Shown one piece after another: positions 15,001 through 18,000 of a stretch of 64,000 nt of DNA (within the stretch, counting starts at the first letter, position 1; each line of letters starts with the position of its first letter). Position numbers: made by a program. The DNA comes from Candidatus Omnitrophota bacterium. GTDB taxonomy: Bacteria; Omnitrophota; Gorgyraeia; JAHJTE01. The stretch is taken from contig JAHJTE010000002.1 in the NCBI GenBank assembly GCA_018830005.1, positions 267,809 through 331,808 on the forward strand, in the 5' to 3' direction.

Positions 15001-18000
15001 AATATATTTTTAGCTTCTCCTACCAAGCTTATAGTTTTGACACTATTGTAAGAATTAACTATTCTCATCCTGCAAGACCTATAATTATAATTTATGAACT
15101 GCAGAATTCTGCTATTATCTAAAACCGCATATCTCCTACCTGAAGGTTCAGTAATCTTTCCTAAAAAGCTATGTTTGAAGCAAGTCTTTAAACAATTCCA
15201 AAAGTGGCTTATTATCTTGTGTATCTGACTAGCGTCATAGATCTCTCTCCATATCTGTTTGTTGCGATTTAAAAATAAAGAAAGACGTTTAAATACATAT
15301 ATCGAAATGCTTGTTTCTAAAAAACTTTTCATTCAATATCCTTTTTTTCTAAACCGATTATAGTTCCGTAGAAACTATAGAAATCTGGAGAAAACGTAAA
15401 AGTGCTTCCAATTTTCAGCAGCTTATTCTCAAAGAAATAACCAGTATTTTTACGATCGCTTATCACTTCAAGTTGCAAAATTAAATCCCTTTTTCCAGAA
15501 CCATCTATGACACTCAAAACTTTTCCATCTCCCACAACTTTGGCAATTTGGGTCGGTGTATTTGAAATAATTTTAACTATTTTAACTGCAGGCCTGTTAG
15601 CCTCAAGTTCTAACCACTGATTCTTTACAATTTGTATCTGTATATCCCCTTCCTTTACAAGTTTACCTACATCTGGATCTAACTCCTCAACCCTCAACGT
15701 TAATAGCACTGTCTCTAAATGTTCTAGGTATTCTATCTTAGGAGTCTCTACAGTAGAAACTCTATGTACAAAATAATATATTGGAATGAGTAATAACAAA
15801 AAGGCAGCTACTAAAAAATCTATAATGTTTATCTTTTCAAATAGCCTTCCTTTTTCATCTATAATCTTCATTTTTATCCCTCCATTTTAAATTTCCGCAA
15901 AGAAGTTTTCTCTGATACCTTTAAGATCTCCTCCCCACCAAGATCGAATCATGATAAAGCTTTGTGATTTCATTTAATTTTTTACTGCAAAATCAATAAT
16001 ATTACCTCGAACGCTATATAAACTTGTGTTTAATGTAATAGTATTACCTATCAAGATCGGAAAATCTTTATAATAATATTTTTCATTTTTTTTCAAGGCT
16101 AGCACATCTACCGATAAAATAAAATCTTTATAAAGTGGATTTTCAACATAGGCAAACTCTTTCCCATCGAATTTCGCTACTGCTACTGTCGAAGTCTTTA
16201 CATCAAAATAAAGTGGATTTTCAACATAGGCAAACTCTTTCCCATCGAATTTCGCTACTGCTACTGTCGAAGTCTTTACATCAAAAATCGAACGAATTCT
16301 GCCTATGGTCTTACCAAAATTATCTTTTTCAATATCTCCTTCTCTTGCTACATTAGCCACCTCTTGAATAATCCCTGAACATTTAATACGCAGTGTCAAC
16401 CACTTTTCTTCAAAATAGGCAATACCTAATATCGCCTTTGCTTTATATTTATCTGTTACAAACTCAAAATGTGTGTCGCGCCCCACTCTCTTACCTTCAA
16501 AATAAAGATTGCCATTATTGTCTACTTGACATCTCATTCTTATCTTTACTGGTATTTGCTTTATCTGCTCATCCTGAACTATTAAAAAATCTCCGCTCTT
16601 CGCATTGATATTAATATAGCCGATTTGAGGTTTGCCAATCTCTAAAATCTCAGCTAACACCTCGCCATTTCTATCTAAAACCTTATCCCCAACGCAAACT
16701 AATTTAAGTGTATTTTCGTTTAAATCTTTTAGTGTAATATCCAAATACAATGTTCTCTCTTCCAATCCACCTTGTTGCTTGAACATAAAGGTTGCTGTAT
16801 ATTTATCAGTATTAAACTCAAAAAAAGGATTGGAAAATAACCGGCTATTTTTATAATATAGATTGCCATCCAATCTAGTTTCTGCCCTCAGCCTGAGTTT
16901 CGCAGAGATCTGTTTTAAGTTTGAATCTTTTATAGTTATCGCCTCTTCCTCACTTAACTTAATCTCATAAAAATAAGGCTTAATCTCCTCTAGACTTATT
17001 ATCTGGGCTATAGGCTTTCCATCCTTATCAAACTCAGCATCTCCAACTGAAAGACTCTTTGCTACTTCGGGTTCTAACATTACAAACAAACAGTGGAAAT
17101 CTGCCTCAACGCTTTCGCCCCACATTTTATATTCCTTAGTGTATACCTTGTAAGCAAAATAAGAGATAGGCAAAAGGAAAATCAATAAAAATATTACTGA
17201 GAAATCTATAACGTTTATCTTTCCGAATAGCTTTCCCTTTTCATCTAAGATCTTCATCTTCTCTGCTCCTTTTTTTTCAGCAAAAAATTTATTCCATTGG
17301 CAGCAAAAATTAATACAAAAGATTCCACGGCCCACCTATGCCTTCCATCTAAATTATAAAGGGCATGTACTAAAGTTAACGTTACTAAAAATAAAACCAC
17401 TGAAATCGTACCATATTTGATACTTTGAGAAGTTAATCCTGTTGCAAACTTTTGATAAATTCCAAGAATAAAAAATGCCAAGATAAATATCCAGTAAAAT
17501 TTGTAAATATCAAAATAAACTTTCGGATACTCGAGGCCTTGTGTCGGAGTAAACCACCAGAAATATTTTATTTTTTTAAAATATAAAACCAATGACTCTA
17601 AAGGGTGCTGTTTAATAAACTCTAATCCCTGTTTATAAAAATATTCCTTTTGGCCAAATTCATCCATACTTAAAATAGTCTTACGAAATTCTTGCGGAGC
17701 AATTTCAAATATAAAATCTCCATTTAAGGTCTTATTTGTTCCGGTTGCATCTTCATTGTAACCTAACCAAAATGCAAGAGCTGAATCATTAGGCGATATT
17801 ACAACTCTATCAAAGACAATATAATTTCTAACCCACAATGGAAGCAAAACTACTGTTATGCTAATCAATATGAGTGTGATCACCCTGACGCATAACGCTT
17901 TATCATCTCGCAGCTTCAAAAAAATGAAAAGCAAAACAACAAATAAGAATGGAGCTATTGTAGAGCGACTAAGTAAGGCCGGTCCAAAAGTTATCCCAAA

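What the first reader, a model, noticed from the sequence alone, without database searches (positions are those of the whole stretch)
15329..17257. Tandem pair of DUF4330 membrane-anchored proteins inside the glycan operon; the longer one carries a perfect 78-bp in-frame duplication
Both genes begin M-K-I-(I/L)-DEKG-(R/K)-LF-x-KINIIDF followed by a TM helix, the DUF4330 hallmark. The family has no known function. Here it sits between a GT-C glycosyltransferase and a GT4, which points to a role in glycan export, chain-length control or anchoring.

The long paralog contains an exact 78-bp direct repeat (16131-16208 = 16209-16286) that adds a second copy of VKTSTVAVAKFDGKEFAYVENPLY. Zero mismatches mean a very recent expansion or contraction. 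It could be a length-variable site in a surface-exposed repeat protein and so cause strain-to-strain variation.
Basis: seen in the sequence. Interest (0 to 1): 0.55.

Follow-up and report, generated by a model that had tools for sequence, protein, structure and literature searches.

The report
DUF4330 gene pair with fresh duplication
Two neighbouring genes of an uncharacterised membrane-protein family (DUF4330) sit in a sugar-polymer gene cluster of an uncultured Omnitrophota bacterium, and the longer one carries a real, very recent 78-base in-frame duplication that a second public assembly of the same population lacks; this is a modest finding, but the family's gene neighbourhood gives a testable idea of its role.

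Summary
Both genes (minus strand, 15329-15871 and 15974-17257) are DUF4330 (Pfam 79 and 64 bits against a cutoff of 27.6). A perfect 78-bp x2 tandem repeat lies at 16130-16286.

The long protein is a conserved N-terminal peptide, one TM helix and three ~118-aa beta modules. The duplication adds 26 aa (about one beta hairpin) inside module 3.

The 2-copy protein is public (MBU2541440.1). A 1-copy protein (MFH1492241.1) comes from another assembly that is otherwise 100.000% identical over 58.7 kb. A third, k=31 assembly breaks exactly 30 nt into each end of the repeat, so repeat-to-repeat junction reads exist and the duplication is not an artefact. Whether 1-copy cells coexist is unproven.

Family context (inferred role): about 2,560 clusters with 1 to 5 or more modules and frequent recent whole-module duplications. 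This sub-module event is the only one among 171 proteins. Outside Omnitrophota the gene lies between a GT4 (27/38) and a Wzy_C polymerase/ligase-like gene (23/31). Omnitrophota have their own conserved four-gene core.

No solved-structure relative, no literature and no Wzz gene in the window. Best reading: a membrane-anchored accessory of Wzy-type glycan assembly that carries a neutral or mildly damaging, unstable duplication.

The parts
15974..17257 (-). Long DUF4330 gene (427 aa; identical to public protein MBU2541440.1). Start ATG overlaps the stop of the upstream GT-C gene (ATGA).
   Evidence: ORF list; Pfam PF14221 E 2e-17; exact sequence found in the public collection
17201..17257 (-). 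Codons 1-19: near-invariant N-terminal peptide MKILDEKGKLFGKINVIDF
   Evidence: Invariant columns in alignments A1, A2 and A3. The motif is present in loci of many phyla and in 109 of 140 representatives found without any word filter.
17138..17212 (-). Single transmembrane helix (residues about 16-40)
   Evidence: AlphaFold2 helix 16-40; hydrophobic stretch of about 18 residues in all relatives
16772..17125 (-). Beta module 1 (residues 45-162)
   Evidence: Internal alignment of modules; pLDDT 80-91
16418..16771 (-). Beta module 2 (residues 163-280)
   Evidence: 354-nt-spaced direct repeats D3 and D5 reflect the module 1 to module 2 periodicity
15977..16417 (-). Beta module 3 (residues 281-427), the terminal-type module most like the short paralog's module (27.7% identity). 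It contains the duplication.
   Evidence: pLDDT below 50 over residues 328-372
16130..16286 (-). Perfect tandem duplication, 2 x 78 nt plus 1 shared base. Protein-order copy 1 = 16208-16285 (residues 325-350); copy 2 = 16130-16207 (residues 351-376).
   Evidence: Absent from otherwise identical contigs L001, L002, L070, L071 and L073. Logan contigs end at 16159 and 16257.
15329..15871 (-). Short DUF4330 gene (180 aa, one module). Motif variant with E12 instead of the usual G12. RBS GGAGGG upstream. 4-nt overlap with the next gene.
   Evidence: AlphaFold2 pLDDT 85.9
14778..15332 (-). 184-aa protein with C-terminal hydrophobic helices and no Pfam or NCBIfam family. Conserved gene directly downstream of DUF4330 in Omnitrophota and Woesearchaeota.
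   Evidence: no family; alignments A5 and A9; public as MBU2541438.1
17254..18504 (-). GT-C fold glycosyltransferase (PMT_2 / Glyco_transf_22), translationally coupled to the long DUF4330 gene
   Evidence: Pfam; gene tables
13627..14802 (-). GT4 glycosyltransferase (391 aa), ortholog of the GT4 two genes downstream of DUF4330 in other Omnitrophota (45-55% identity)
23309..25177 (-). GT1 (TuaH-like) plus DUF218 (ElyC-like) fusion. In most Omnitrophota, Nitrospinota and Planctomycetia relatives it is the gene immediately upstream of DUF4330. Here about 5.7 kb of other genes separates them.
   Evidence: 50-63% identity
8565..9863 (-). Wzy_C (O-antigen polymerase/ligase-like) membrane protein of the cluster
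   Evidence: Gene table; NCBIfam
9799..11631 (-). WecA/MraY-type polyprenyl-phosphate sugar-phosphate transferase (likely initiating enzyme) with a CoA_binding_3 region

Best explanation
The locus encodes two paralogous DUF4330 proteins in one operon of a very large undecaprenyl-phosphate-type glycan cluster in an uncultured Omnitrophota bacterium.

Architecture. Each protein has a short, almost invariant N-terminal peptide (probably cytoplasmic), one transmembrane helix and then beta-barrel-like modules (probably outside the membrane). The short protein has one module and the long one has three.

The duplication. Shown: the long gene carries a genuine, very recent tandem duplication of 78 bp. 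Inferred: it adds a second copy of about one beta hairpin inside module 3. It most likely arose by replication slippage or unequal exchange, since only about 1 nt of homology is seen at the junction. Because it is a perfect direct repeat it is intrinsically unstable, so 1-copy and 2-copy cells probably coexist, and different assemblers reported different alleles. It is most likely neutral or mildly harmful, not a programmed switch.

Function (inferred from gene order only). DUF4330 proteins are membrane-anchored accessory subunits of Wzy_C-type (polymerase/ligase) glycan assembly. The conserved N-terminal peptide and helix would dock onto the membrane machinery (the Wzy_C protein, the GT4, or in Omnitrophota the 184-aa partner and the GT-C). 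The variable number of modules would project into the envelope as a spacer or co-polymerase-like element.
For: Identity:
- Pfam PF14221 matches both proteins above the cutoff.
- The motif and helix are conserved.
- Three homologous modules are present.

The duplication is real:
- It is perfect in the window.
- The 427-aa product is an existing GenBank/IMG/GEM protein from a 403-kb contig.
- The Logan k=31 contigs SRR6514730_5751 and _22210 are 100% identical to the window and end exactly 30 nt (k-1) inside the shared unit from either side, at window 16257 and 16159. That is the de Bruijn branch pattern expected only if repeat-to-repeat junction k-mers are in the reads.

The duplication is recent and derived:
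- There are zero mismatches between the copies.
- The 401-aa protein P0001 is identical apart from the missing copy.
- The six more distant homologues have one hairpin.
- The 1-copy contigs match the window at 100.000% over 5329-64000.

Family behaviour:
- 2,563 clusters at E of 1e-3 or better, with length peaks near 170, 290, 405, 530 and 714 aa.
- At least 12 of 171 proteins have near-identical adjacent whole modules.

Glycan link:
- Outside Omnitrophota the upstream neighbour is a GT4 in 27 of 38 loci.
- The downstream neighbour is a Wzy_C protein in 23 of 31 loci.
- Second-tier neighbours are further GT4s, Wzy_C, Wzx flippases and CsaB.
- Omnitrophota, Nitrospinota and Planctomycetia share the order GT1-DUF218, DUF4330, ~185-aa protein, GT4.
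- No Wzz/PCP family was reported for any product in the window.

Operon: 4-nt overlaps, no terminator-like site, and an RBS before the short gene.
Against: - Function rests on gene order alone. There is no experiment, no literature and no significant structural or sequence relative in the PDB.
- Topology is not settled. K+R averages 3.5 before the helix and 2.2 after it, which is a weak bias.
- The 63 loci were retrieved with the pattern FGKIN[VL]ID, so motif conservation in them is partly by construction. The unbiased HMM search still shows the motif in 109 of 140 representatives.
- The existence of a 1-copy allele in cells is not proven. The NCBI and ENA 1-copy contigs probably share one MEGAHIT lineage (lengths differ by exactly 4,000 nt; 3 mismatches in about 58 kb) and could be a collapse.
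- The low pLDDT in the duplicated stretch says nothing about folding, because the extra copy has no aligned homologues.
Confidence: 0.6

Rival explanations
1. The population is uniformly 2-copy. The 1-copy contigs (ENA k141_554643 and its NCBI derivative) are a collapsed repeat, so there is no strain-to-strain variation.
For: A k=31 graph is the same for a 2-copy-only population and for a mixture (inference). The JGI/GEM assembly reports 2 copies.
Against: A MEGAHIT contig built up to k=141 needs k-mers that span flank, unit and flank (more than 78 nt). A 2-copy-only read set would not supply these (inference from how such assemblers work, not tested here). Perfect 78-bp direct repeats are expected to delete at appreciable frequency.
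Confidence: 0.3
2. The duplication is an assembly artefact of the window's source contig and does not exist in any cell.
For: Two public contigs lack it. No read-level data could be inspected here.
Against: An independent k=31 assembly of run SRR6514730 branches exactly k-1 nt into both ends of the unit. That requires junction k-mers in the raw reads. The 2-copy protein is also in IMG/GEM/GenBank.
Confidence: 0.05
3. DUF4330 proteins are not machinery but cargo. They would be membrane-anchored acceptor proteins that the adjacent Wzy_C-type enzyme (the family that includes the O-oligosaccharyltransferases PglL, PilO/TfpO and TfpM), or here the PMT-like GT-C, glycosylates. This would parallel pilin genes that sit directly upstream of their O-oligosaccharyltransferase gene.
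For: DUF4330 lies immediately upstream of a Wzy_C gene in 23 of 31 loci. Some of those Wzy_C proteins hit O-glycosylation ligase models such as TIGR03097 and TfpM. Here a PMT_2-type GT-C is translationally coupled to the long gene. Ala/Ser- or Pro-rich linkers follow the helix in many relatives. The architecture of conserved N-terminus, hydrophobic helix and beta domain is pilin-like in outline. The pilin gene-order parallel is recalled from memory, not tested.
Against: The most conserved part is the short N-terminal peptide rather than any exposed acceptor region. No class III signal peptide signature (Gly at -1, Glu at +5) is seen by inspection. No pilus-assembly genes appear among the neighbours. 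All NCBIfam hits of the Wzy_C neighbours are below their curated cutoffs.
Confidence: 0.2
4. The 78-bp repeat is a programmed contingency (phase- or length-variable) site that tunes a surface protein.
For: Copy number differs between assemblies. The family changes length often.
Against: There are only two copies of a long unit. It is in frame, so there is no on/off switching. It does not coincide with a module boundary. It is unique among 171 family proteins, while all other recent duplications are whole modules. No relative has a repeat at this site.
Confidence: 0.05

Closest known systems
Pfam PF14221 (DUF4330), annotated by NCBI as 'DUF4330 domain-containing protein'
   Same: Both proteins pass the family model. 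They share the N-terminal motif, the single helix and the beta module. The exact 427-aa and 401-aa proteins are already in GenBank under that name.
   Different: This locus has two paralogs in tandem, which is seen elsewhere only in a few Clostridia loci (L043, L053, L057). The long paralog carries a sub-module 26-aa duplication found in no other family protein examined.
Polysaccharide co-polymerases (Wzz / PCP, PF02706)
   Same: A membrane-anchored protein with a large non-catalytic extramembrane part, encoded beside a Wzy-type gene. It occurs in clusters that otherwise lack a Wzz gene. The variable length is compatible with a spacer or ruler role (inference).
   Different: There is no sequence match to Wzz. 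It has one transmembrane helix rather than two. It is all-beta tandem modules rather than an alpha-helical coiled-coil bell. Oligomerisation is unknown.
Pilin gene followed by a Wzy_C-family O-oligosaccharyltransferase gene (pilA-tfpO/pilO, pilA-tfpM); recalled from the literature, not tested here
   Same: A small protein with a conserved N-terminus, a hydrophobic helix and a beta domain, encoded directly upstream of a Wzy_C-family gene.
   Different: There is no prepilin-peptidase signature, no pilus genes nearby, and multi-module forms exist.
IctB-family Wzy_C proteins of cyanobacteria (TIGR00947)
   Same: 22 of 31 downstream neighbours of DUF4330 have this model as a hit (best 270 bits, in a Vampirovibrionales MAG). 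The window's own Wzy_C protein also hits it. A cyanobacterial EPS survey notes that it is unclear why IctB proteins carry polymerase/ligase domains (PMC4594306).
   Different: All hits are below the curated cutoff of 366 bits, so these are relatives and not IctB proper. In the one Gloeobacteraceae locus the downstream gene is dnaJ.
Perfect intragenic tandem duplications in modular cell-surface proteins (general phenomenon; own knowledge)
   Same: Exact in-frame direct repeats, a copy-number difference between closely related genomes, and a family prone to module gain.
   Different: The unit here is a fragment of a module, not a whole folding unit.

Membership tests
DUF4330 (PF14221) | Score above Pfam's gathering threshold (27.6 bits) | tested here: met
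   Short protein 79.1 bits and long protein 64.3 bits
DUF4330 (PF14221) | N-terminal M-K-I-I-D-E-K-G-R-L-F-G-K-I-N-x-I-D peptide followed by one hydrophobic helix | tested here: met
   Both proteins carry it. The short one has E instead of G at position 12. AlphaFold2 predicts a helix at 16-40 in both.
DUF4330 (PF14221) | Full-length match to the ~167-position model (helix plus one beta module) | tested here: met
   The short protein matches positions 1-166 of 167. The long protein matches only positions 1-96 of the Pfam model. Its modules are nevertheless homologous to the short protein's module (16-28% identity), and its 1-copy form scores E 3.6e-94 in two stretches against the family profile A2.
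Polysaccharide co-polymerase (Wzz/PCP) | Match to the Wzz domain model (PF02706) | tested here: not met
   A Pfam scan of both proteins returns only DUF4330
Polysaccharide co-polymerase (Wzz/PCP) | Two transmembrane helices flanking a largely alpha-helical periplasmic domain | tested here: not met
   One N-terminal helix followed by all-beta modules
Polysaccharide co-polymerase (Wzz/PCP) | Controls polymer chain length together with Wzy | not testable with these tools
   Only gene adjacency to Wzy_C is available: 23 of 31 loci
Type IV pilin-like O-glycosylation substrates | Class III signal peptide (short basic leader, Gly at -1, Glu at +5 of the mature protein) | tested here: not met
   By inspection of the motifs, no position fits. 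The only PDB pilin hit is E 0.043 over the hydrophobic helix.
Type IV pilin-like O-glycosylation substrates | Protein carries a glycan added by the neighbouring Wzy_C-type enzyme | not testable with these tools
   Needs mass spectrometry or glycostaining
Contingency (repeat-mediated variable) locus | Repeat copy number differs among closely related genomes | tested here: met
   2 copies in the window and MBU2541440.1; 1 copy in MFH1492241.1 and ENA k141_554643, which are otherwise identical. Whether both alleles exist in cells is unproven.
Contingency (repeat-mediated variable) locus | Array of several short units whose gain or loss switches or tunes expression, recurring at the same site in relatives | tested here: not met
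   Two copies of a 78-nt unit, in frame. No repeat at this site in the homologues. It is unique among 171 family proteins.
EF-Tu domain II-like translation-protein beta barrel (fold resemblance only) | Significant structural superposition | tested here: inconclusive
   Elongation-factor entries recur among the matches but never reach significance: BFVD best E 0.022 with TM 0.32; PDB EF-Tu/eEF1A rows at E 0.4-0.8.

The most novel reading that the evidence does not exclude
DUF4330 would be a previously unrecognised, widespread class of envelope 'spacer' or co-polymerase. It would dock through its invariant N-terminal peptide and helix onto IctB-like Wzy_C polymerases/ligases and their GT4 partner. 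Its number of beta modules, which changes rapidly by tandem duplication, would set the glycan chain length or the distance at which the polymer is assembled or attached. The 1-copy and 2-copy alleles here would be a snapshot of that length evolution within one population.
Probability: 0.15. Interest if true: 0.75.

Novelty: new member of a known kind. Interest (0 to 1): 0.4.

Why it matters
The locus itself is a minor variant of an already catalogued domain family. Both protein versions are already in GenBank under the DUF4330 name.

What could matter is the family. It is large (about 2,560 clusters at 50% identity). It occurs in Bacteria and Archaea. It has no paper, no solved structure and no fold relative. 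It is nevertheless tightly linked to GT4 and Wzy_C (IctB-like) genes, and its module number keeps changing through recent duplications.

That gives a concrete, testable hypothesis for a missing accessory of Wzy-type glycan assembly. It is also a lead on what IctB-like proteins do. The copy-number difference shows how assemblers can silently report different alleles of a perfect tandem repeat.

Tried and rejected
- Structure comparison. Foldseek of the 427-aa model (pLDDT 72.8) and the 180-aa model (pLDDT 85.9) against the PDB gave no match at E of 0.001 or better. Against BFVD the best E was 0.022. A family profile against PDB sequences gave a best E of 0.012 (uL24), which is not meaningful.
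- Other libraries. NCBIfam, PHROGs and PADLOC gave nothing for the two DUF4330 proteins or the 184-aa partner. Phage or defence roles were therefore dropped.
- Literature. There were no papers for 'DUF4330' or 'PF14221'.
- The 184-aa partner. A profile-profile comparison with the IctB-like Wzy_C neighbours showed no relation (probability 0.1). The idea that it is a Wzy_C remnant was rejected. A profile search for more relatives found only 3.
- Locating the 2-copy contig. Exact look-ups with the 427-aa protein, the 453-aa GTG-start version and P0168 were not on record in the contig index. A JGI metagenome scan with a 44-nt flank pattern gave 0 hits. The window's species is not among the GTDB representatives, where the best match is 37% identity. 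The provenance was finally obtained from the cluster look-up.
- Expression signals. The promoter and terminator scan around the genes found nothing above the shuffled expectation.
- Pilin reading. It was considered because of the conserved N-terminus, helix and beta domain next to a Wzy_C gene. It was rejected as a membership claim because there is no class III signal and no pilus genes. It is kept only as the 'acceptor protein' rival.
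Full report
**1. What is in the sequence**

The region lies in a 64-kb stretch in which every ORF of 150 aa or more but one is on the minus strand. GC is about 34%.

Two ORFs match the finding:
- 15329..15871 (180 aa).
- 15974..17257 (427 aa, counted from the ATG that overlaps the stop of the upstream gene as ATGA). A GTG further upstream would give 453 aa.

Both start with MKI(I/L)DEKG(R/K)LF(E/G)KIN(I/V)IDF followed by a hydrophobic helix. 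Pfam assigns both to PF14221 (DUF4330), against a gathering cutoff of 27.6 bits:
- Short protein: E 5.7e-22, covering the whole 167-position model.
- Long protein: E 2e-17, covering model positions 1-96.

NCBIfam, PHROGs and PADLOC have nothing for them.

The tandem repeat is exact:
- TRF reports period 78, 2.0 copies, 100% matches at 16130-16286.
- No further copy exists in the window.
- It is 26 codons long and duplicates FDVKTSTVAVAKFDGKEFAYVENPLY, residues 325-350 and 351-376.

**2. Anatomy of the proteins**

The long protein consists of:
- the N-terminal peptide;
- one helix (AlphaFold2 residues 16-40);
- three modules of about 118 aa that are homologous to each other and to the single module of the short paralog (16-28% identity).

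AlphaFold2 models:
- Long protein: mean pLDDT 72.8. Modules 1 and 2 and most of module 3 are at about 75-90. The duplicated stretch 328-372 is below 50. That is expected, because the extra copy has no aligned homologues.
- Short protein: pLDDT 85.9.

Mapping the duplicated unit onto the short model puts it at the end of one long strand plus one complete beta hairpin and the following turn. This mapping is an inference. The duplication is therefore a sub-module event, not an added repeat module.

Neither model has a significant structural neighbour:
- PDB: no match at E of 0.001 or better.
- BFVD: best E 0.022.
- Elongation-factor beta barrels recur among the weak matches, but this stays inconclusive.
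- A family profile finds nothing meaningful among PDB sequences.

**3. Is the duplication real, and is it variable?**

The closest database protein, P0001 (401 aa, MFH1492241.1, a Candidatus Omnitrophota MAG), is identical to the window protein except that it lacks one 26-aa copy. Six more distant homologues also have a single hairpin there.

Comparison with the contigs that carry P0001:
- ENA ERZ27247117 k141_554643 (214,765 nt) is 100.000% identical to the window over 5329-64000, apart from the 78 bp.
- NCBI JBDRIX010000004.1 (210,765 nt) shows three mismatches. Because it is exactly 4,000 nt shorter, it is probably the same assembly lineage.

The 2-copy protein is itself public: MBU2541440.1, from a 403,156-nt contig in IMG, the GEM catalogue and GenBank, locus tags KJ593_. 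This is very probably the source of the window.

A third, independent assembly is informative. The Logan contigs of run SRR6514730 are 100% identical to the window. One ends at window 16257 and the other at 16159. Each end is exactly 30 nt into the shared repeat unit, from the left and right flanks respectively.

Logan assembles with k = 31 (own knowledge). A break at k-1 nt into both ends of a unit is what a de Bruijn graph produces when the unit's first 30-mer has two predecessors and its last 30-mer has two successors. That happens only when repeat-to-repeat junction k-mers are in the reads. I therefore regard the duplication as real in the sample.

The same graph arises from a pure 2-copy population and from a 1-copy plus 2-copy mixture, so coexistence of alleles is not proven. 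I favour a mixture for two reasons:
- A k=141 MEGAHIT contig with one copy needs k-mers that span flank, unit and flank.
- A perfect 78-nt direct repeat is expected to delete readily.

Both points are inferences. Read mapping would settle the question.

**4. Surroundings**

The pair is operonic:
- The GT-C gene (PMT_2, 17254..18504) overlaps the long gene by 4 nt.
- A 102-nt spacer with a GGAGGG ribosome-binding site precedes the short gene.
- The short gene overlaps a 184-aa gene (14778..15332) by 4 nt.
- That gene overlaps the GT4 gene (13627..14802).
- No terminator-like site is present.

The wider cluster holds:
- a WecA/MraY-type initiating transferase;
- a Wzy_C protein;
- two Wzx-type flippases;
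- four PMT_2-type GT-C proteins and a DUF2079 protein;
- many GT2 and GT4 enzymes;
- at least seven B12-binding radical-SAM enzymes;
- NeuB;
- aminotransferase, epimerases and methyltransferases.

No Wzz/PCP family was reported for any product.

**5. Related loci**

A scan of one genome per species with the peptide pattern FGKIN[VL]ID returned 63 loci. They come from Omnitrophota, Nitrospinota, Planctomycetia, Acidobacteriota, Vampirovibrionales, Gloeobacteraceae, Coriobacteriia, many Clostridia, Brevibacillus, Woesearchaeota and Thermoplasmatales.

The window's own species is not among these representatives.

In Omnitrophota, Nitrospinota and Planctomycetia the gene order is:
- a GT1-DUF218 fusion (50-63% identical to window 23309..25177);
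- DUF4330;
- a ~185-aa protein homologous to window 14778..15332;
- a GT4 (45-55% identical to window 13627..14802).

This order is shown. The ~185-aa partner also follows DUF4330 in three Woesearchaeota loci.

In the window about 5.7 kb of genes, ending with the GT-C, is inserted between the fusion gene and DUF4330. A second DUF4330 gene is also present.

In the other phyla:
- The gene immediately upstream is a GT4 in 27 of 38 loci.
- The gene immediately downstream is a Wzy_C protein in 23 of 31 loci.
- 22 of 31 downstream neighbours hit the IctB model, always below its cutoff.
- Second-tier neighbours are further GT4s, Wzy_C, Wzx and the pyruvyl transferase CsaB.
- Tandem DUF4330 pairs recur in three Clostridia loci, and there one member also carries a deviant motif.

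**6. The family as a whole**

A profile search of 1.84 billion representatives, with no word filter, finds 2,563 clusters at E of 1e-3 or better.

- Among the best 140 new hits, lengths peak at about 165-175, 285-295, 400-415 and 525-540 aa, with one protein of 714 aa. That corresponds to one to five or more modules.
- 109 of the 140 carry the motif.
- A self-comparison of 171 family proteins shows at least 12 with near-identical adjacent whole modules, at offsets of 110-134 aa.
- Module number therefore changes often and recently.
- The window protein is the only one with a sub-module duplication, at an offset of 26 aa.

**7. Mechanism**

Shown:
- family membership;
- architecture;
- operon structure;
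- conserved gene order;
- reality and recency of the duplication.

Inferred, with my estimate of likelihood:
- N-in/C-out topology (about 0.7). K+R averages 3.5 before the helix and 2.2 after it, and Nitrospinota relatives have poly-proline linkers after the helix.
- A role as a non-catalytic accessory of Wzy_C-type glycan assembly (about 0.75 in general terms).
- The more specific co-polymerase or spacer role (about 0.35-0.4).

In this model the invariant peptide and helix dock onto the membrane machinery, and the modules project as a spacer or co-polymerase-like element.

The main functional rival is that DUF4330 is the acceptor protein glycosylated by the neighbouring Wzy_C-type or PMT-type enzyme (about 0.2).

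The duplication itself is best seen as a fresh slippage product, neutral or slightly harmful, and intrinsically unstable. It is not a programmed switch.

**8. Comparison with what is known, and verdict**

- The genes are members of DUF4330 and are already named so in GenBank.
- They are not Wzz/PCP proteins. There is no domain match, they have one helix rather than two, and they are all-beta.
- They are not pilins. There is no class III signal peptide.
- No paper mentions the family.
- One cyanobacterial EPS survey notes that the polymerase/ligase domains of IctB proteins are unexplained (PMC4594306).

The finding is a new member of a known but uncharacterised family, with a genuine and minor structural variant. 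Its value lies in the family-level picture that came out of checking it.

Noticed in passing
window 14778-15332 (minus strand); also L003-L011, L023, L022, L041, L056 directly downstream of DUF4330: A ~160-200-aa protein with C-terminal hydrophobic helices and conserved NS / SFLG(R/K)xTE motifs. It has no Pfam or NCBIfam family. It is a fixed downstream partner of DUF4330 in Omnitrophota and in three Woesearchaeota genomes. A profile search found only 3 further relatives.
   Followed up: partly
L018-L064 (non-Omnitrophota loci), genes flanking DUF4330: A conserved three-gene order, GT4 then DUF4330 then Wzy_C, across Bacillota, Acidobacteriota, Vampirovibrionales and others. 22 of 31 downstream neighbours (which include the Wzy_C proteins) hit the IctB model TIGR00947 (best 270 bits against a cutoff of 366). 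CsaB pyruvyl transferase is often nearby. This may bear on the unknown function of IctB-like proteins.
   Followed up: partly
P0002, P0027, P0029, P0032, P0036, P0039, P0063, P0065, P0073, P0086, P0110, P0133: These DUF4330 relatives contain adjacent whole modules that are nearly identical (17-20 of 20 residues at offsets of 110-134 aa). These are recurrent recent module duplications. Family lengths fall into classes of about 170, 290, 405, 530 and 714 aa.
   Followed up: yes
window 23309-25177 and 17254-23300: The GT1 (TuaH-like) plus DUF218 (ElyC-like) fusion gene abuts DUF4330 in most relatives. Here it is separated from DUF4330 by about 5.7 kb: B12-radical SAM, a 104-aa Cys-rich ORF, GT2, epimerase, aminotransferase and GT-C. 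This looks like an insertion into a conserved core.
   Followed up: partly
window 1-64000: The whole 64-kb window is one same-strand glycan cluster (all but one ORF of 150 aa or more on the minus strand). It has at least seven B12-binding radical-SAM enzymes, four PMT_2-type GT-C proteins plus DUF2079, two Wzx flippases, NeuB, an ATP-grasp enzyme, a CDP-glycerol-type transferase and many methyltransferases. No Wzz or outer-membrane export gene was reported.
   Followed up: partly
window 15329-15871; L043:9535-9996, L053:2968-3483, L057:5077-5565: Where two DUF4330 genes are in tandem, one copy deviates in the otherwise near-invariant motif. Here it is LFEKIN instead of LFGKIN; in the Clostridia pairs it is LFG(V/I)(L/F)N. 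This hints at a heteromeric pair.
   Followed up: no
L012, L014, L017 (Nitrospinota): Runs of 9-11 prolines directly follow the transmembrane helix of the DUF4330 protein. Oscillospiraceae relatives have Ala/Ser-rich linkers at the same place.
   Followed up: no
window 21507-21821, 33922-34629, 60117-61064, 2181-3239, 63121-63951: Five ORFs inside the cluster have no Pfam family at E of 0.001 or better. They include a 104-aa Cys-rich protein next to a radical-SAM gene.
   Followed up: no
window 9799-11631: A 610-aa protein joins a WecA/MraY-type transferase domain (residues about 16-330) to a region that matches the N-terminal, non-catalytic half of WbaP/WcaJ-type phosphoglycosyl transferases (CoA_binding_3). 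This is an unusual fusion for an initiating enzyme.
   Followed up: no
window 16130-16286 compared with public contigs: Three public assemblies of the same population treat this perfect repeat differently: 2 copies (IMG/GEM), 1 copy (MEGAHIT in ENA and NCBI), and a contig break (Logan). This is a concrete example of assembler-dependent alleles in deposited MAG proteins.
   Followed up: yes
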